DNA of 64,000 nucleotides, from the NCBI GenBank assembly GCA_964016885.1, contig OZ024741.1, positions 87,048,001 through 87,112,000 on the forward strand, in the 5' to 3' direction. This DNA is from Eledone cirrhosa. Taxonomy: Eukaryota. The stretch's first letter is position 1. Each line of letters begins with the position of its first letter. The notes below the pieces were generated by a model, which worked only from the letters and a program-made list of their open reading frames with translations, was not told the DNA's origin and ran no database searches. Shown in pieces: positions 34,634 to 62,995 of this stretch. Position numbers and translations under genes: made by a program.

Positions 34634-34676
<43 letters not shown>

Positions 34677-34964
34677 CAAATAACGAAACGAAATTAAATT
34701 TCGTTTCGTTTGTAACTCACTTTTGTATGACTGACGCTTAAACAATTAAGTCAAAAATGTACATCCACATATGTATACTGAAATACTAGTATGCATATGA
34801 ATACACACACGTATACATATGTAGATGTACCGAGTTTTTCACTGGTCACTTTACTGTGAGTGTCCAGCTATTCTGTATGTAAACACACAGACAAACCGGT
34901 TTTTAGAGTCATACTGGTTTTTGAGGAAACACCTTTCCTCTATTCTCCAGAAAGCCAGACAAGG

Positions 34965-35009
34965 AATATTGAACTAGTTTCGTTGTTGTTACAACTCATC
35001 AGCAATATT
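34965..35009 (-). ncRNA. Type I minimal hammerhead ribozyme
   Basis: AATATTG-CTGATGA-GTTGT(AACA)ACAAC-GAAA-CTAG-TT-CAATATT: 7-bp stem I, 5-bp stem II, palindromic ACTAGT stem III, GUU triplet. Confidence 0.85.
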
Positions 35010-35465
35010 TACCTATCTTCCGGCCCTTCTAGAGAATCGTAAAAGCACATATCGTTATATGCTTTTTATATGAAAATTAGTAGTGGGCAGACTAATTTGC
35101 ATAGAGCGTGAGTACGTACCGGTTCAACGGAGACGATAAAAACAAATAACGAAACGAAATTAACCAGTGAAAAACTCGGTACATCTACATATGTATACGT
35201 GTGTGTATTCATATGCATACTAGTATTTCAGTATACATATGTGGATGTACATTTTTGACTTAATTGTTTAAGCGTCAGTCATACAAAAGTGAGTTACAAA
35301 CGAAACGAAATTTAATTTCTTTTCGTTATTTGTTTTTATCGTCTCCGTTGAACCGGTACGTACTCACGCTCTATGCAAATTAGTCTGCCCACTACTAATT
35401 TTCATAGAAAAAGCATATAACGATATGTGCTTTTACGATTCTCTAGAAGGGCCGGAAGATAGGTA

Positions 35466-35510
35466 AATATTGTTGATGAGTTGTAACAACAACGAAACTA
35501 GTTCAATATT
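35466..35510 (+). ncRNA. Hammerhead ribozyme copy with a core C-to-T mutation (TTGATGA)
   Basis: Identical to 34965-35009 except for the first core base. Confidence 0.7.
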
Positions 35511-35731
35511 CCTTGTCTGGCTTTCTGGAGAATAGAGGAAAGGTGTTTCCTCAAAAACCAGTATGACTCTAAAAACCGGTTTGTCTGTGTGTTTACATAC
35601 AGAATAGCTGGACACTCACAGTAAAGTGACCAGTGAAAAACTCGGTACATCTACATATGTATACGTGTGTGTATTCATATGCATACTAGTATTTCAGTAT
35701 ACATATGTGGATGTACATTTTTGACTTAATT

Positions 35732-35792
<61 letters not shown>

Positions 35793-36273
35793 TATATATA
35801 TTTATATATATATATATATATCTATATATCTCACGCTGCATTAAAACACTAGTCATCTACACTTGGAAGACGTTTTGAAATATTCTCTACATTGTGTATA
35901 TATAACGTTTAACGGAAGAGTAGATAAAACATGGCAGGCCTTAAGGATTGCAAAAAAGAGCTCTAGGCGAATAAATTTTAGATGAAACTATAGACCATTT
36001 TAACACCTAGGAATCTGTATTTAAATTTATATATTATTGTTCTGTATATATGTACGAAATACTAGTTTGTTTATCAATTGATATATCCTCTTATATATCG
36101 CTTATACATATATATTATAGATGCTCTGAACAGAAGTTTATTGAACTTTGTACTGAGAAACATTATTGATATATATTTTATATGTATTGATTAAACCTAA
36201 AATTAACTTATATATGATATGTTAGTGCACATTTTACTTCAGACCAATCATGTTTTTCATGTTTTATCAACAG

Positions 36274-39307: not shown

Positions 39308-39858
39308 TATATTATATTTTGAGAATAAACTCTCAGTCGTTTACATCCGGGAATGCGGGACGGCTAATTTGGCCTGGCTGCACACGTGTAGTCAGACCTG
39401 CTAAATTTTTGATGTGAAATATACTAATTTTACTGGGTTCCTGTTGATAAGCACAGAAGATTTGGATATTTCACTTTTTATTTCAATTCCATTTCGATTC
39501 TCTTTATTTTTCAATTCACGTACCACCGTTGCGAAACGTATTTGGGTTTCGAGGTTCAAATTCATCTACGGAGCAGGTTTGGATTTTGAAATTTAAATAT
39601 GTCCAGGAACCATGGCCATTGCCAATATAAGCTTGTCTTTATTGGCTTATATCGAGACAGACAAATTGTATTCACTTTAATTAGTTTATTTCATTAATAG
39701 CTAACTTTGTCTGTTACAATGCAAACACGTTTTGTGTTTATCATATATTTTAATGTATATATATATATATAGTTTGAAGGTGAAATTTATTTAATATTAT
39801 TACACATCGCTTAGTTCTACACCGCTATACTATACTTACTGGAAATTATATATATATA

Positions 39859-40350
39859 GAAGTGGTTTCACAACAGTTAGTTCATCATACCGAGAACAAT
39901 TGTTTCACCTTAGCGGATCCCCAGTTCGTAATGGACATGGTTATACGGAACAGGAAGGACACCCGTATGAACGCGCATGCGCAGAAACGGTCACTTCACT
40001 CAGGCAATACTAAATTGAGTGCGAGAGGTGTAAGAGAGATAACTGCGAAAGTCAGAAAGTTTCTAGTTGATAAGAAAATTAGGATGTTCTTGTAAACTAC
40101 AAAGCTCCGGATTGAATTACAACATCCTAATTTTCTTATCAACTAGAAACTTTCGGACTTTCGAAGTTATCTCCCTTACACCTCTCGCACGCAATTTAGT
40201 ATTGCTTGAGTGAAGTCAGCGTTTCTGCGCATGCGCCTTCATACAGGTGTTCTTCTTGTTCCGTATAACCATGTCCAATACGAGCTGAGGACCCGCTAAG
40301 GTGAAACAATTGTTCTCGGTATGGTGAACTAACTGTTGTGTAACCACTTC
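39859..40350. mobile_element. MITE-like foldback element with ~230-bp imperfect terminal inverted repeats
   Basis: GAAGTGGTT...AGGATGTT mirrors AACATCCT...AACCACTTC, with a ~30-bp spacer and TA on both sides. Confidence 0.85.
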
Positions 40351-40413
40351 TACCTAACTCGTCCCATGGACTGAGTGCTCTACCACTACGGATATTACCT
40401 TCCAGTGTTCTAC

Positions 40414-40459
<46 letters not shown>

Positions 40460-40719: not shown

Positions 40720-40997
40720 ATAAATATTTCGTATCTCCAAAGAAATACAGTTTTAGGAAGCCGTAGCTATGCAAACACCTGGGGGCTAACGCCCTCTGGT
40801 GATGTCCAGCAGAAGCAAGGGGGACAACCGTCTATTCATTTCAGGCTTAACTGGCCTTCGTCAGGACGGTCCCTCCCACCGCTTGCGACTGCTGGACTAG
40901 AAGACAGCTGAGAATATATACGGAGCACCTGCTGGCCCTCACACACAGGCTGTTCATGTAACAAGCAGTACTTCTGCCAACAAGAGGCGAGCATGTC

Positions 40998-42295
40998 ATA
41001 GATCTCTGTTTTACAAACAACGCAGTGCTCATCCACAATGTAAAGGTGACACCAACGATTTTCTCGGATCATAACTTAGTACACCTAATGATATGTGGTC
41101 CGAGAGAATCAACAGAGACACAACCATCAAGAAGTACCGGGGCCTTATCCAGCCTTAACTTCTACAAGGCTAACTGGAAAAAGATCAAAAGAGAAATCCG
41201 GAAGCAAATGTGGAGCGACATCCCCACACAAGACACCAACACATATTTTCAACACTTCATGACAACGATACAAACTATATGCCAAACGTTTGTCCCGGAG
41301 AAAAAGGCCAACAGGCACAAAAATCTTATTCCCAGAGATAGGAAAATCCTTATGAGACGGAGAACTAAGCTCTCAAACCAGTTGAATGCACAAAAAAAAC
41401 AAAAAAAACAAAACAAGAAGGAATCCTATTTGAAACGTGCACTAATTGACATCGAGATTGCACTCAAACTTTCCCATGAAAATGAGAGGGCAGAGAAAGA
41501 AACCAGGGCCATAGAAAATATTAAAACAAACCCTAAGGCCTTCTTTAAATTTGCAAAAGAGACTGCCTAGGTACACTCTTCCATAAAAACGGTTCATTAA
41601 CCGAGAATCCCCAAGAGATAAGTGAAATACTGAACGAACAGTACAAAAGTGTGTTCACATGTCCACTGAGGCACATGCAAATAACAAAGCCAGAGGATTT
41701 CTTTGATGCCACAATACTCCATGAAGAAATGGCGACCATCAACCACATCGACATAACGGAGGAGGATGTGGTATCACCATAGATGAAATTAGAACAGACT
41801 CAGCTGCTGGACCTGATGGATTCCCAGCAGTCCTCTTAAAAACATATAAGCGGGCCTTAGCTACTCCACGACGACACTCTTCAGAAGCTCCTTGTCTAAC
41901 AGTAGACTACCCAGTGAGCTGAAAGAAGGCACAATATGCCCTATCCATAAAGGAGGTAGCAGAGCGGAGGCCAAAATCTATAGGCCAGTCTCCCGGACGT
42001 CACATATCAGTAAGGTCATGGAGCGAATCATCAGAAAGAAACTGATAACTTTCCTCGAGAAAAATGATCGCCTGACTAGCACGCAGCATGGCTTTCGCCC
42101 AGGAAGAAGCTGCCTAACACAGCTGCTACATCACTACGACTGGGTACTGAAACAACTGCTAGACAGCGCACATGTGGACGTGATGTATCTTGACTTTGCG
42201 AAGGCCTTTGACAAGGTCGATCACGGATTGATATGTCACAAGGTACACAGACCTCGGCATAACTGGAAAAGTAGGTGAGTGGCTGCATGACTTCT
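40998..42295 (+). mobile_element. CR1/L2-group LINE ORF2 relic
   Basis: IDLCFTNN...SDHNLV (APE end), AAGPDGFP, QHGFRPGRSCLTQLL and YLDFAKAFDKVDH, with multiple frameshifts. Confidence 0.82.
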
Positions 42296-42296
42296 T

Positions 42297-42800
42297 ATAT
42301 ATGTATGTACGTGTACATACTTATATTTAAGTAACAGCCGTACTAAGAGTGGGAAATGAAATTTCGTTTCATTTTTTTCCGTTTATCGTTTTCGGTGCAC
42401 CCGGCCGATTAACCCACTCGATATGCAAATTGGGCTACTCAGCCGTCAATATGCATAAGGTAAGTATATACGTTCAACAATCTGGCAGGAAGGTATACGT
42501 TGCTGACGATAGCTAATAAGCTTGAAACTAGTACAGCGTTCCTTTGTCAGTGTTGAACAAACGAGCAGCGATGGTTGCTAGACACTACGGCTTAATACGG
42601 GATTTTTGTTTACATACACACCGAGCATTATAATAAATGTTCGGTGAATCCATACGTACATATATATATGTGTGCATGTATATATATATATATACATACT
42701 ACTGTACGTCTCTATACATATATGTATGTACGTGTACATACTTATATTTAAGTAACAGCCGTACTAAGAGTGGGAAATGAAATTTCGTTTCATTTTTTCC

Positions 42801-42806
<6 letters not shown>
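42297..42806 (+). mobile_element. Retrozyme-like non-autonomous element, 421-bp unit with ~90-bp terminal direct repeat, ending in (TA)n
   Basis: 42297-42386 is repeated at 42718-42806. Contains an internal hammerhead and is homologous to the 466-bp unit. Confidence 0.78.
42497..42539 (+). ncRNA. Type I minimal hammerhead ribozyme
   Basis: ACGTTG-CTGACGA-T-AGCT(AATA)AGCT-T-GAAA-CTAG-TA-CAGCGT: 6-bp stem I, palindromic ACTAGT stem III, GUA triplet. Confidence 0.82.
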
Positions 42807-42845
<39 letters not shown>

Positions 42846-43848: not shown

Positions 43849-43878
<30 letters not shown>

Positions 43879-43879
<1 letters not shown>

Positions 43880-44071
43880 ACAAAGAGGGTGTGTTAAGAT
43901 ATCAGGTGGACCATAACGCACCAGAGTACTCAATACTTAGGGTAGTAGACTAGGTAATAGGAGCTTAGCCGTCGGGGTCCTGACTCTTTTCCGATTACCC
44001 TCTCTACTACCCTAAATATCGAATACTCTGGTGCGTTATGGTCCATCTAGTTTCTTAACACTTTCTTTGTT
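43879..44071. mobile_element. Short MITE-like imperfect palindrome inside (TA)n
   Basis: GGACCATAACGCACCAGAGTA..TTAGGGTAGTAGA is mirrored by TCTACTACCCTAA..TACTCTGGTGCGTTATGGTCC. Confidence 0.75.
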
Positions 44072-44147
44072 ATATATATATATATATATATATGAAAATA
44101 TATATATACATATATATATACATATATATATACATATACATATATAC

Positions 44148-52692: not shown

Positions 52693-53589
<897 letters not shown>

Positions 53590-53710
53590 ATACTTTGGGA
53601 GGGCCATGTTGCCAATAAGAAACACACGCACCAGTTGCTTTCACTTCAATTTATTATATATTTATAAATTTATAAATTTACAAATTTATAAATTTCTGGT
53701 TGGTATATAT

Positions 53711-53755
53711 AGTCATAGTTCTTTCGTCACACACTCTGTGACCTCTTCAGTGACT
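53711..53755 (-). ncRNA. Minimal hammerhead ribozyme in the inverted PLE1 arm
   Basis: Reverse complement of 57248-57292. Confidence 0.72.
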
Positions 53756-54392
53756 GGGGATTCCTTTCTTTGTTTCTGTGCCTCTCCTTTGTTCTGTCCT
53801 ACGCCATTTTGTTTCTGTGTGTGTGTTGTGTGCTCAGTCTGCGCATGCGCCACATCCGGGTGTCTGTGTGTGTTTATGTTCATTTATTTATTTGTTTATT
53901 TACATGTTACTGGTTGGTTGTTTGTTATATGTGTATGTGTGTTTTCATTTTGTCCTTAATTGAAAGTTGTGATGTTGCTATTCCACTCATATTTTCTATT
54001 TAATTTTGGTTGTAATTCTTTTATGTTTATTGCCTCTGTAATTTGTCTAAACATTGCGTCTTTTCTGTGTGTAGATTCTATTTTTATTTCTATGTTCTCT
54101 AATTTACCCTTGTGTTCTATCTTAGCATGTTGGTAGAGTACAGATGATTCTTTATTATCTTGAAGGTCTCGCCAGTGTTCATTTATCCGTTCCCCTACAC
54201 TACGAGCTGTCTCACCTATGTACACTATATTTTTGTCTCTACATTGTCCTTCAGTACATCTTATGCTATACACTACATTTCTAGTTTTACAGTTAATATG
54301 GGGGCTTATTTTACAGGTTATACATTTCTTATCTATACATGAGGGTCTTTGAAAAGGGTATGTCTTGCTAATAAGTGTTTTTACGGAGGTAC

Positions 54393-57047
54393 TTGGTATT
54401 TCTAGTAATGACAGTAGCACAGAAATCACAGAAATAAGGGAAAGTAATAGGATTAAAAGGAGAAGGGAGACTAAGGACAAAGAGAATAACCAAGACGAAC
54501 ACACAGACACACAAAATAGGGTAGATAACAACAATGAGCCAGTGGAAAGAGACAGGAGTAATTATGAGAGACATAGAAACAACCATGAGGCTGTTGGTGG
54601 AAATAGAAATAGAAACAACACAACTAACAATAACAATAGCACTAGTACACATAAAGCAGCAGCCTGGAACTCTACGTTTTATAATCCCTCCGATAAATCA
54701 TTCGACCTGCGACGAGTCCACGCCACGACTTTACCATTTAACAAACGCACGCAATTGCCGTCGCAGGTCGATGAACAAACAGAAGCACAATTTAGTATAG
54801 CTAGATCTGAACTTAGAAATATTATAGAACAGTATAGCAAGAAGCATAATAGAATGGAGGCCCAGCAACTGGGAGAAAAATCTGCAAATGGCTTGCGTAA
54901 GCTCATGAAGCGCTCACGTAATGGAGAGATAGCATGCTTTCCAACAGACAAGTCTGGCAGAATGTCGGTTGACAGCCTTCCAAACTACATCCAGGCAATG
55001 CAACCCCACATCACTAACACAAGAGAGGTAACACCACAGGAGCATGAGGATAGAGAAAAAGCCCTCAATGCCCATATGGTGATGTGGACGAATATAATGC
55101 AGCCCAACAAAAGGACTGCCAACAACTTCCAGGCCTGGAACAATGACGTGCCGGCGTTGTATGGGCTTCGAAAAGACCATAAAACGGGCTGTGACTCTGT
55201 CGCGGGACCACCAACACGGCCAGTCTGTGGAGCTAACATTGCTAGTAACTACAGACTGTCCTACTTCCTCTCCCTGATCATACGCCCCATCATTGAAATG
55301 TTCCCAGATGTATGTGACAGCACGGAGGACCTCCTCAGCAGAATCGGCGTGATTAACCGATCTGGGGACCTAACAAACTGCATAATAGGCAGTATGGATG
55401 TTGTGTCCCTGTATCCATCTATTGACGTGGATTTTGCTGTGGAGAAATGCGTAGAAATGATCAGTGAGAGCAAGGTTGAGTTCCGTGGGATTGATACCAG
55501 TGAGCTGGGACTCCTACTTAAGCTTACCTATAGTAATAGTTACCTAGACACATATGACCTTAGCAGCCTGTGCCCTACAAGACCAGCAAGAGGCAGACCA
55601 CCTACCATTACCTCAATGGCCAAGAAAACCCACACAGATAGATGGAACGGGTGGACCAGAGCCATACGGACACCCGAAAACCACGATGAACTGAAGAAAA
55701 TGATTGCACATGCGGTAGGGGCCAGCATAAAACTAACCGTTAAGGAACATATGCTCAAATTTAATGGAAAAACATATGCCCAAGAGGAAGGAGCAGCCAT
55801 TGGTGTTAGCATTGCAGGCGACATAGCTAACTTATTCATGGTATGGTGGGACAGTAGACTTAAACTTAAACTTAAAGAACAATTAGAAGACCCCTTAACC
55901 CTGATAATGTACTCCCGCTACGTAGATGATATAAACATCGTAGTTAAGACACCCCCACTAGAGAACAGTCAGGAACTAGAGAAAAACACAATGGAAAGCA
56001 TCCAGCAAATAGCAAACTCCATCCACCAGAGCATTAGAGTTACTATAGACTACCCAAGTAAACACCCCAACCATCGATTACCTGTACTAGACACAGAGCT
56101 CTGGTTAGATACCATTAACAACAAAAAACAAATCCTCCATTCCCATTATGCCAAACCCATGACTTCCAAACATCTGATCCACCGAAACTCGGCCATTTCG
56201 GACCATACCAAAATCAACATACTGATTGCGGATTTGGTACGGGTGATGAGAAATGTGTCCCGCATGTGCAACCCCGAAGAACTAGAGAGACACATACAAC
56301 ACTTCATCCACCGTATGCAGTTATCTGGCTACAATCAGAGAAAAAATCAGAGTGTATAGAGGAGCCGGAACCAAATGGGAAAAAATGGTAAATAATGACA
56401 TAAATGGGACCTGCCCCTTGTATAGGAGCACATTTTGGAATAGAATAGAAAGAACTAGGAACAAGGCTAATAGAATAAACTCATGGTATGATAGCAATAA
56501 ATACCAGAGTGTAATGTTCATCAATACAACCCCTAGAGGTGAATTAGCTTACAAATTTAGAAGGGCCCTAAATAAACATAAACTCAACATTAAGATAGTA
56601 GAAAGACCAGGTACCTCCGTAAAAACACTTATTAGCAAGACATACCCTTTTCAAAGACCCTCATGTATAGATAAGAAATGTATAACCTGTAAAATAAGCC
56701 CCCATATTAACTGTAAAACTAGAAATGTAGTGTATAGCATAAGATGTACTGAAGGACAATGTAGAGACAAAAATATAGTGTACATAGGTGAGACAGCTCG
56801 TAGTGTAGGGGAACGGATAAATGAACACTGGCGAGACCTTCAAGATAATAAAGAATCATCTGTACTCTACCAACATGCTAAGATAGAACACAAGGGTAAA
56901 TTAGAGAACATAGAAATAAAAATAGAATCTACACACAGAAAAGACGCAATGTTTAGACAAATTACAGAGGCAATAAACATAAAAGAATTACGACCAAAAT
57001 TAAATAGAAAATATGAGTGGAACAGCAACATCACAACTTACAATTAA
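54393..57047 (+). CDS. PLE reverse transcriptase + GIY-YIG endonuclease (5'-truncated, one frameshift in an A-run at ~56341)
   Basis: DKSG, SMDVVSLYPSI, GAAIG, YSRYVDD, LPVLD, Cys linker CIDKKCITC (Neptune-like), VVYSIRC...YIGET...RINEH...E...LN. Confidence 0.9.
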
Positions 57048-57247
57048 GGACAAAATGAAAACACACACACACATAGAACAAACAACCAACCAGTAACATG
57101 TAAATAAACAAATAAATAAATGAACATAAACGCACACAGACACCCGGATGTGGCGCATGCGCAGACTGAGCACACAACACACACACAGAAACAAAATGGC
57201 GTAGGACAGAACAAAGGAGAGGCACAGAAACAAAGAAAGGAATCCCC

Positions 57248-57292
57248 AGTCACTGAAGAGGTCACAGAGTGTGTGACGAAAGAACTATGACT
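57248..57292 (+). ncRNA. Minimal hammerhead ribozyme in the PLE1 3' pLTR
   Basis: AGTCA-CTGAAGA-G-GTCACA(GAGTG)TGTGAC-GAAA-GAAC-TA-TGACT. Confidence 0.75.
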
Positions 57293-57442
57293 ATATATAA
57301 ACAACTATCTGGTTGTGGAACCAACCAACCAACCAGAAATTTATAAATGTGTAAATTTATCAATTTATAAATATATAATAAATTGAAGTGAAAGCAACTG
57401 GTGCGTGTGTTTCTTATTGGCAACATGACCCTCCCAAAGTAT

Positions 57443-57500
<58 letters not shown>

Positions 57501-57733
57501 CAGAGAATGTCTGTTTGTCTGTCTGTCTGATTCCCTAAAACTCGAGAACCACACAACCGATTGTTTTCAAACACATGTAATACTTATGGTCCTGTGAGTT
57601 TTTTGAGCAAAAACAATTTCAAATTTTCAATGCCCTAGGGACCGCATTACGCGATTTAGCGATCTGTTTATAATTCTTAGTTTTCTTTTTAGATAGATAC
57701 ATAGATATAACGTTGCGCCCTTATAATATCTGT

Positions 57734-61360: not shown

Positions 61361-61641
61361 AAGGAAATAGAAAAACAATTACTGTGGTTACCCCCGATTG
61401 AACCCGGGATAAACTTATATATATACTCGTATATATCGTGTGTGAAGCTCAGCGTTTCTGTAATTGCAGTTATTTTCTGCGCCTGAGCTTCCTATATCTT
61501 ATATATATATTGTTTTTTTTCTGGCAATATTATAACAATATGACCCTACCCAAGTATAACAATATATATATATATATATTCTATTTTAGGAATATGTTTT
61601 GAGAGTGTATGTATGTGACACATGCGCGCACGCACACACAC

Positions 61642-62170: not shown

Positions 62171-62995
62171 TTGTTTGCAATTATGCAAACAGACTCTTTA
62201 GACCATGCCAATAGCTAGTGATATTTCCTGGAATATACAGTGACTGATCGGCCTGATTTGAATACTAGCAGACTGGCTGATCAGTCAGATCTGCATATTA
62301 GCAGACCCACTGATCAGCCAGATTTGCATATCAGCAGATAGCGCAATCAGTTTCATGTATACGAGCGATGAATGGCCGCCTTTGTTACTAGCTCTGACAG
62401 TTGGCAAGTATGCGGTATACGGTACTGATGAAGGGTAATCAGCCAGAAACATTGTGTCTTCCGTTCTGTTTATATGCCAACACATGAGCAAGAATGACGG
62501 AGTCATTTTACTGACATGGCTTAAAGAGGTTCTTTGTATAATTGCAAACGAATCGAATATTATTATTAATATTCGAAAAGCTCAGATTTACATTTCTTGT
62601 ATTCAGCCATGGAGAGCGATAAAACTATTTATATATATATATACTAGCCGAATTACCCGCGCCTTTACACTTTTTTTGTAAGAAAATGATGATTGATTTT
62701 AAATCAGTGATATAATTTATGGAGAAAAACTTTTCAAAATATCAATTCAAATCTTTTGTGAATAGGCATCATATCTTGTCATTTACCTATGGTTTAAATT
62801 TCATATAAATCGAAGGGAAAAAATGTTCAGCTTGTGTTTGTGCCCCCGGATAACCCTTTAATAAAATGAAATACACTTATCCAAGTAGCCTGGGCAATGT
62901 AGTTTCAGAATATATATGGTTATGGGAGTCTATCTCCAAAACCATAAGAGGAGTTCGTGAACAAACAAAGAGGAACTACAACTTTATATATATAG

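What the first reader, a model, noticed from the sequence alone, without database searches (positions are those of the whole stretch)
34671..35736. Non-coding 466-bp hammerhead replicon inserted as head-to-head, more-than-unit-length arms in (TA)n
Seen: each arm is a circularly permuted, slightly more than monomeric copy of the same unit. The arms join 5'-to-5' at ~35163 and both 3' ends merge with (TA)n through TTTA(T) microhomology. A minimal type I hammerhead with palindromic stem III is present. Known: metazoan non-LTR retrozymes form circular RNAs, and minimal PLE hammerheads are proposed to cleave as dimers. Inference: reverse transcription of a circular or multimeric RNA by Penelope-like machinery. 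The topology copies that of PLE1 at 53584-57448.
Basis: partly seen in the sequence, partly recalled or inferred. Interest (0 to 1): 0.78.

Follow-up and report, generated by a model that had tools for sequence, protein, structure and literature searches.

The report
Octopus retrozyme with Penelope insertion footprints
This is a young insertion of a 466-base non-coding repeat with a hammerhead ribozyme motif, laid down as two mirror-image arms in a TA microsatellite as Penelope-type jumping genes do, so it is likely a new octopus member of the known animal 'retrozymes' copied by Penelope enzymes.

Summary
Observation real. Right arm 35164-35736 (+, 573 nt) and left arm 35163-34671 (-, 493 nt) are each slightly more than one 466-nt ORF-less unit, joined head-to-head, both 3' ends in (TA)n. 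Two corrections. (1) The hammerhead is the canonical HH9-like type I form typical of non-LTR retrozymes, not the minimal PLE form; the right-arm copy has a C3U core change. (2) The 3' ends are not randomly permuted: a public run shows (AT)n at the left arm's end in 12 contigs and 5 nt from the right arm's end in 2, and a sister family (about 420 nt, 42297-42806) ends at the homologous site. The 69-nt offset is the known PLE 'tail'. The sister unit is colinear, about 60% identical and keeps the fold with compensatory changes. Inverted 5' copy, tail and TA target are textbook PLE insertion marks, and PLE mobilisation of retrozymes is already proposed in print. Verdict: new member of a known kind, probably cephalopod. 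Its value is insertion-level evidence for the retrozyme-PLE link. Cleavage, circular RNA and the partner PLE are untested; an uncleaved tandem transcript explains the arms as well as a circle.

The parts
34636..34672 (.). left (TA)n target run; left arm's 3' end overlaps it by TAT
34671..35163 (-). left (inverted) arm, 493 nt = one 466-nt unit plus 28-nt redundancy; 5' start equals right-arm position 35312, 3' end equals 35339 (major end of the family)
   Evidence: major end
34671..34738 (-). 69-nt 'tail' present only at the left arm's 3' end (equals 35271-35339)
34965..35009 (-). canonical type I hammerhead, intact core, palindromic helix III; Rfam HH9 match 34949-35020, 37.7 bits (gathering 52)
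35163..35164 (.). head-to-head junction, about 1 nt microhomology; 35164-35311 (148 nt) is the spacer between the inverted arms
35164..35736 (+). right arm, 573 nt = one unit plus 107-nt identical redundancy (35164-35270 = 35630-35736); 3' end at the minor site
35299..35327 (+). 13-bp hairpin just upstream of the major 3' end; the left arm's 5' start (35312) is its first loop base
35373..35380 (+). octamer ATGCAAAT, conserved in position in the sister family (42423); role untested
35466..35510 (+). second hammerhead copy with C3U change (35473); nearly all depth in the three public runs that cover the site has C; predicted cut after 35503
35735..35829 (.). right (TA)n target run; right arm overlaps it by TA
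42297..42806 (+). sister family copy (unit B, 420-421 nt plus 90-nt redundancy), colinear, about 60% identical, canonical hammerhead with U.U at the base of helix II (cut after 42533), 3' end TTTAT|(TA)n at the homologous site; no inverted arm
53586..57446 (+). PLE1 for comparison: 5'-truncated, frameshifted RT + GIY-YIG element with an inverted 822-nt 5' arm, both ends in (TA)n, minimal-type hammerhead at 57253; no sequence similarity to the unit

Best explanation
The element is one recent insertion of a protein-less, highly folded 466-nt hammerhead-bearing unit (a non-LTR retrozyme), likely copied into a TA microsatellite by the reverse transcriptase-endonuclease of a Penelope-like element acting in trans. 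Shown: the anatomy, the intact hammerhead on the left arm, two preferred 3' ends about 70 nt apart, a fold conserved with a sister family, and that all three arms in the window run through the predicted cleavage site. Inferred: a tandem precursor is transcribed; the hammerhead, probably as a dimer through its palindromic helix III, would release monomers whose ends are held together by a long extended stem I and could be ligated into circles; a TA-targeting PLE protein would cut both target strands and prime cDNA internally at the major site (35339) on one strand and the minor site (35270) on the other; the two cDNAs, each longer than one unit, would then be joined head-to-head. The template must exceed one unit: uncleaved tandem RNA (about 55%) or ligated circle (about 45%).
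For: Anatomy. Preferred ends: run X1 (1043 contigs laid) shows (AT)n behind 35339 in 12 contigs and behind 35265 in 2, and summed depth falls from about 650k to 355k across 35339/35340; unit B ends at the homologous TTTAT. Fold: z -10.3 (A) and -7.6 (B), 0 of 100 shuffles each; separately folded A and B share 62 of 153 pairs, 14 with both sides changed, against 2.8 +/- 3.9 shared pairs in 60 randomly diverged controls; 94 of 121 A pairs can form in B against a null of 69.5 +/- 4.3, 0 of 2000. In the cleaved monomer the first 7 nt pair with the 3' region at P 0.72-0.99, and the major end lies in a 12-nt single strand inside a domain closed by sequence downstream of it, which fits internal priming. 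Same layout in PLE1 and two more TA-flanked palindromes, one with a 65-nt tail. Literature: inverted 5' copy, tail, TA bias (PMC8557442 passages; PMC3846280 passages, including mobilisation in trans); two internal RT start sites, both strands cut and extended (PMC11167929).
Against: No RNA evidence was obtained and no genome is held. No sequence similarity between the unit and any PLE end in the window, so no partner is identified. One search showed no strand-change joint, so inverted arms are shown for this copy only. The tail is 69 nt against the 30-40 nt reported. Rfam score is below gathering. Outside the hammerhead arm and the TA-rich hairpin, covariation is weak (44 of 62 pairable, 24 of 2000 nulls reach it; 7 double changes, 203 of 2000), and only two families were compared. 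No copy with two full tandem hammerheads was seen. 8 of 9 Xenopus retrozyme dimers did not cleave in vitro (Li et al. 2026), so activity cannot be assumed.
Confidence: 0.78

Rival explanations
1. The unit is the pLTR or gutted remnant of an ORF-bearing PLE, and these copies are by-products of the parent rather than a self-propagating family.
For: A Neptune-like PLE in L008 has a hammerhead core 84% like unit A's over 38 nt in its 3' pLTR. Li et al. 2026 find 24 of 57 Xenopus retrozyme families homologous to known TEs, nearly all PLE termini. 37 of 47 loose-end rows were hidden and short unitigs may hide ORF junctions.
Against: The unit wraps onto itself at period 466 in both arms and at 420 in a sister family; one 416-nt contig of run X6 follows the circular order with no foreign flank; the share of X1 records running on into unlike sequence is 0; no ORF remnant; the hammerhead is canonical, whereas PLE1 and L008 carry minimal-type ones. 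Ancestry from a pLTR is not excluded.
Confidence: 0.1
2. The unit is a retrozyme, but another non-LTR reverse transcriptase in this genome (L1/Tx1-, RTE- or R4/NeSL-like) mobilised it, with the inversion made by twin priming.
For: Such elements are abundant in the window. The left arm's 5' start lies 41 nt downstream of the right arm's 3' end modulo 466, the geometry expected from twin priming on one 2.4-unit RNA (model recalled; chance roughly 1 in 10).
Against: No poly(A) or simple-repeat RNA tail; both ends sit in (TA)n like the window's PLEs, whereas the R4/NeSL-like elements sit in (AAT)n; two recurrent internal start sites are a PLE property (PMC11167929). The same geometry could also come from a PLE dimer.
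Confidence: 0.07
3. The mirror arm came from a DNA-level inverted duplication or an assembly error around a single 1.2-mer copy.
For: Arms are 99.3% identical and share private alleles (for example G35257, about 1% of depth in X1); the junction was not checked against reads.
Against: Flanks beyond the TA runs are not duplicated; the left arm stops exactly at the family's major end, 69 nt past the right arm's end; the arms differ at 3 sites; other PLE-type palindromes recur in the window.
Confidence: 0.05

Closest known systems
Metazoan non-LTR retrozymes (Cervera & de la Pena 2020, PMC7229834; Li, Clavereau & Pollet 2026, bioRxiv 10.64898/2026.07.22.740005)
   Same: Non-coding, GC under 50% (36%), canonical type I hammerhead with short palindromic helix III, highly self-paired, apparently high copy, head-to-tail continuity; unit B has the U.U helix II base described for axolotl HHR_Amex2.
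   Different: 466 nt is just above the 150-450 bp range of the 2020 paper (inside Li's 51-972). Here it is a 1.1-1.2-mer with an inverted arm in (TA)n, not a tandem array; the main texts read do not describe inverted arms, tails or TA targeting for retrozymes. No cephalopod retrozyme paper was found. RNA not tested.
Insertions of EN+ Penelope-like elements (Neptune, Hydra, Naiad type; PMC8557442, PMC3846280, PMC11167929)
   Same: Inverted 5'-truncated copy joined head-to-head, partial tandem, optional tail on one arm, (TA)n target without a readable TSD, two start sites.
   Different: No RT or GIY-YIG ORF; tail 69 nt instead of 30-40; canonical instead of minimal hammerhead; the junction is not a fold-back palindrome (148-nt spacer).
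Non-autonomous PLEs such as MRC1 of Chlamydomonas (PMC8557442)
   Same: ORF-less unit with pLTR-like redundancy and head-to-tail copies, moved in trans.
   Different: MRC1-type elements generally share 3' sequence with autonomous Chlamys, most of which lack hammerheads; here no shared end with the window's PLEs was found.
Minimal hammerheads of PLE pLTRs (Cervera & de la Pena 2014, PMC4209133)
   Same: Type I topology, palindromic helix III region, dimer cleavage proposed; oppositely oriented pairs 100-700 bp apart were already noted in Schistosoma.
   Different: The minimal form has a 4-5 bp helix I, a longer helix II and an extra base before helix II (as in PLE1 at 57253); this unit has the canonical 6 + 4 bp layout.

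Membership tests
Non-LTR retrozyme | Canonical type I hammerhead in each unit | tested here: met
   Rfam HH9 model 1-77, 37.7 bits (below gathering 52), 6-bp helix I, 4-bp helix II with hexaloop; unit B 19.7 bits; right-arm copy has C3U
Non-LTR retrozyme | Short non-coding unit, GC under 50%, no LTR/PBS/tRNA module | tested here: met
   466 nt, GC 0.36, longest stop-free stretch 60 codons, no tRNA gene in the window; PBS/PPT motifs not searched separately
Non-LTR retrozyme | Stable, highly self-paired RNA fold | tested here: met
   z -10.3 and -7.6; fold shared between families with compensatory changes
Non-LTR retrozyme | Head-to-tail tandem copies with two or more full hammerhead units somewhere in the genome | tested here: inconclusive
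   Only 1.1-1.2-mers in the window; circular-order continuity in runs X1, X6, X10 but no listed piece spans a whole unit; no genome held
Non-LTR retrozyme | Self-cleavage as monomer or dimer | not testable with these tools
   Helix III palindrome is predicted to self-pair at about -6.6 kcal/mol; no assay
Non-LTR retrozyme | Expressed as abundant linear and circular RNA | not testable with these tools
   No run on record as RNA was offered; not evidence either way
PLE-type insertion | Inverted 5'-truncated copy, head-to-head | tested here: met
   this copy only
PLE-type insertion | Optional tail on one arm from two RT start sites | tested here: met
   69-nt offset; (AT)n ends at 35339 (12 contigs) and 35265 (2 contigs) in X1; longer than the 30-40 nt reported
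PLE-type insertion | AT-rich or (TA)n target | tested here: met
PLE-type insertion | Palindrome at the inverted junction | tested here: not met
   Left arm starts at a hairpin loop, but the junction itself has a 148-nt spacer and is not a fold-back
Autonomous PLE or its pLTR | RT + GIY-YIG ORF linked to the repeat | tested here: not met
   No ORF, no tblastn match of window PLE proteins to the units, unit followed by itself; one search has limited power to exclude rare ORF-linked copies
Non-autonomous derivative of a specific PLE | Shared terminal sequence with an autonomous partner | tested here: inconclusive
   No match to the three PLEs in the window; rest of the genome not available
Minimal PLE hammerhead (min-HHR) | Short helix I, long helix II, extra base before helix II | tested here: not met
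   PLE1's own motif at 57253 does fit

The most novel reading that the evidence does not exclude
Octopods carry at least two old, structurally conserved retrozyme families whose ligated RNA circles are read directly by a (TA)n-targeting Penelope-like enzyme that starts at two structure-defined internal sites. The inverted arm, tail and TA junctions would be the first insertion-level proof of which autonomous element moves canonical-hammerhead retrozymes, and the conserved domain around 35270-35370 would be the cis-acting recognition signal.
Probability: 0.35. Interest if true: 0.68.

Novelty: new member of a known kind. Interest (0 to 1): 0.46.

Why it matters
A 2020 review (PMC7761336, passages) states that animal retrozymes show no conserved motif that reveals their mobilising element; present support for PLEs is co-occurrence and pLTR homology. 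This locus adds a different kind of support: a canonical-hammerhead unit with PLE integration marks, plus two diverged families that point to a conserved folded domain around the start sites. That gives a small, defined RNA for the existing in vitro PLE assay and a way to ask whether circles or uncleaved multimers are the template. Each part is known; the combination is a useful confirmation, not a new class.

Tried and rejected
No whole genome is held, so no genome-wide survey. Sequencing-run search: no RNA holder listed; 20 of 24 rows hold part of the stretch, of which 4 rows were laid (X1, X6, X10 and the added X23); small unlaid shares are not used as evidence. X23 gave 0 reads (no test); X6 and X10 cover the unit at depth about 5 and 10-30, origin unknown, so no claim of horizontal transfer or expression is made; summed contig depth is not a copy number. 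Pattern scans: family-specific pattern 0 hits in metagenome contigs; looser pattern 0 in viral contigs and 12 in metagenome contigs, none homologous beyond the hammerhead core; only L008 is PLE-linked. Rfam miRNA hits are TA/CA-repeat artefacts. My descriptor missed unit B's and PLE1's hammerheads, so it undercounts. Twin-priming geometry was checked on PLE1 and not found: its main arm starts well inside the ORF. An snRNA-type promoter role for the octamer, as recalled for newt satellite 2, found no paper in the library. Literature searches with no description of this combination: (0 papers). Supplements of PMC7229834 could not be read and those of the Li preprint are closed; either may list cephalopod or inverted examples. 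No earlier notes on this genome or look-alike sequences.

Full report
Setting. The window is repeat-rich animal DNA: R4/NeSL-like and L1/Tx1-like retrotransposons on the left, long (TA)n and (CA)n runs, and three Penelope-like elements (PLEs) on the right. The best named hits of the PLE1 protein are Octopus vulgaris proteins at 65-70% identity, so the host is probably an octopod; this is inferred. No whole genome is held.

Observation. The structure is as described. The right arm (35164-35736, +) is one 466-nt unit plus 107 identical nt; the left arm (35163-34671, -) is one unit plus 28 nt; they match over 425 nt with 3 mismatches and meet 5'-to-5'. Both 3' ends overlap (TA)n by 2-3 nt, and the flanks beyond are unrelated. 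The unit has no reading frame over 60 codons, GC 0.36, and the window has no tRNA gene. Three differences in 425 nt suggest a young insertion.

The ribozyme. A type I hammerhead lies at 34965-35009 (-) and 35466-35510 (+); a strict descriptor gave no hit in 10 of 10 shuffled windows. The left copy is intact; the right has C3U, and nearly all depth in the three runs covering that site has C, so the right copy is likely inactivated. Helix III is the palindrome AACUAGUU, too weak as a monomer but predicted to self-pair at about -6.6 kcal/mol, which fits dimer cleavage. It is not the minimal PLE form. It aligns to Rfam HH9 over positions 1-77 (37.7 bits, gathering 52) with a 6-bp helix I, 4-bp helix II and hexaloop. 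Cervera and de la Pena 2014 (PMC4209133, parts 1-2 of 4 read) call that layout canonical; PLE1's motif at 57253 has the minimal layout.

A sister family. 42297-42806 holds a 420-421-nt unit plus 90 nt, colinear with unit A at about 60% identity (alignment score 161 vs -65 +/- 15 in 100 shuffles), with a hammerhead of the same helix III and a 3' end at the homologous TTTAT before (TA)n. Both units fold far better than shuffles (z -10.3 and -7.6) and better on the ribozyme strand. Folded separately they share 62 of 153 pairs, 14 with changes on both sides, against 2.8 +/- 3.9 in 60 controls. With the real substitutions re-dealt, 94 of 121 pairs remain possible against 69.5 +/- 4.3 (0 of 2000). 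Without the TA-rich hairpin and the hammerhead arm the signal is weaker: 44 of 62 (24 of 2000 nulls reach it) and 7 double changes (203 of 2000). So structure is conserved, most clearly in the extended stem I. In a monomer cut at the hammerhead this stem pairs the 5' and 3' ends, as a circle-forming RNA would need. Of 16 variant sites in public runs, 6 are unpaired in the predicted fold, 8 keep a pair and 2 break one.

The family elsewhere. Twenty of 24 listed runs hold part of the stretch, none on record as RNA. One unit (35164-35629) was laid on four runs. X1 gave 1043 contigs over all 30 bins at very high summed depth, with (AT)n loose ends behind 35339 in 12 contigs and behind 35265 in 2, and a depth drop across 35339. 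X6 and X10 cover the unit at low depth; one X6 contig follows 416 nt in circular order. X23 gave no reads. Ten of 47 loose-end rows were shown; none from X1 looked like an ORF junction, but short unitigs weaken that test. No strand-change joint was listed. So 3' ends are mainly fixed at one major and one minor site, and the window's two arms use one each.

What is known. Craig et al. 2021 (PMC8557442, passages) give the standard PLE insertion: partial tandem, an inverted 5'-truncated copy, a 30-40-bp tail on one end, (TA)n bias linked to the CX2-5CxxC linker, and non-autonomous members such as MRC1. Arkhipova et al. 2013 (PMC3846280, passages) add head-to-head arms and mobilisation in trans. 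Frangieh et al. 2024 (PMC11167929, parts 1-2 of 4) show a PLE protein cutting and extending both strands, starting internally at two sites that define the tail, with unprocessed RNA the dominant template. Cervera and de la Pena 2020 (PMC7229834, parts 2-4 of 6; supplement unreadable) define animal retrozymes, show circles in coral, mussel and axolotl, and name PLEs as the strong candidate mobiliser. Li et al. 2026 (bioRxiv 10.64898/2026.07.22.740005, parts 1-3 of 5; supplements closed) support this by co-occurrence and pLTR homology; only 1 of 9 dimers cleaved in vitro. The window shows the same layout in PLE1 and two other TA-flanked palindromes, one with a 65-nt tail.

Mechanism. Shown: anatomy, ends, conserved fold, and that all three arms pass through the predicted cut (by 191, 340 and about 237 nt). 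Inferred: tandem transcript, dimer cleavage, possible ligation, internal priming by a TA-targeting PLE protein at two sites on the two target strands, head-to-head joining. The major start lies in a 12-nt single strand within a domain closed by sequence on both sides of it, which needs a longer-than-unit RNA. Circle and uncleaved multimer both provide that. The left arm starts 41 nt after the right arm's end modulo 466, which would fit both arms coming from one 2.4-unit RNA by twin priming (model recalled); the chance of this is about 1 in 10 and PLE1 does not show it.

Pure pLTR? Unlikely for these copies: the unit is followed by itself, has no ORF remnant and matches no PLE end in the window. 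Descent from a pLTR remains open; L008 shows a PLE with a similar hammerhead core. The partner element is not identified.

Verdict. A real, well-formed new member of the animal non-LTR retrozymes with PLE insertion marks. My searches found no paper on cephalopod retrozymes or on inverted, tailed, TA-targeted retrozyme insertions, but unread supplements may hold such cases, and earlier unchecked notes of this scan describe similar non-coding PLE passengers in other animals. Interest 0.46; 0.68 if circles are shown to be the PLE's template.

Noticed in passing
window 53319-53555 and 57497-57733: Beyond both (TA)n runs of PLE1 lies a 237-bp inverted pair (229/237 identical) that resembles the end of a Helentron/HINE-type element (recalled). 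Either two independent insertions tail-to-tail, or 3' flank carried on both PLE arms; the right copy cuts PLE2's 3' end.
   Followed up: partly
window 42297-42842: Second retrozyme family (420-421-nt unit) sitting at the end of a LINE fragment, no inverted arm; its redundant ends differ by one T in a T run.
   Followed up: yes
window 39857-40417: PLE-type palindrome in (TA)n, arms 215/232 identical, 65-nt tail on the right arm, decayed hammerhead-like motif at 40285.
   Followed up: partly
window 43875-44075: Small palindrome in (TA)n with both ends at the same point; arms 73/88 identical.
   Followed up: partly
window 40826-40871 (-): Another well-formed type I hammerhead, on the minus strand just upstream of the LINE fragment at 40962-42296; context not worked out.
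   Followed up: no
window 35373 and 42423: Octamer ATGCAAAT conserved in place between the two families; newt satellite 2 is recalled to use an snRNA-type promoter with an octamer, not confirmed in the library.
   Followed up: partly
window 57424-57447: PLE1 copies end 24 nt after an ATG (MTLPKYNN), probably the start of the ORF; a related end occurs at about 61540-61565.
   Followed up: partly
run X10, record 9, at 35165: One low-depth contig joins unrelated sequence to the unit one base from the right arm's 5' start (35164); may be a preferred stop site or an edge effect.
   Followed up: no
L008 84-2163: Neptune-like PLE (RT, CX4CxxC linker, GIY-YIG) with a hammerhead core 84% like unit A's in its 3' pLTR.
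   Followed up: partly
window 1-31300: Dense nest of R4/NeSL-like elements in (AAT)n and L1/Tx1-like elements, several near intact (ORFs of 1204 and 1078 codons).
   Followed up: no
window 62425 (+): Hammerhead-like core in a possible further PLE end near 62200-62640.
   Followed up: no
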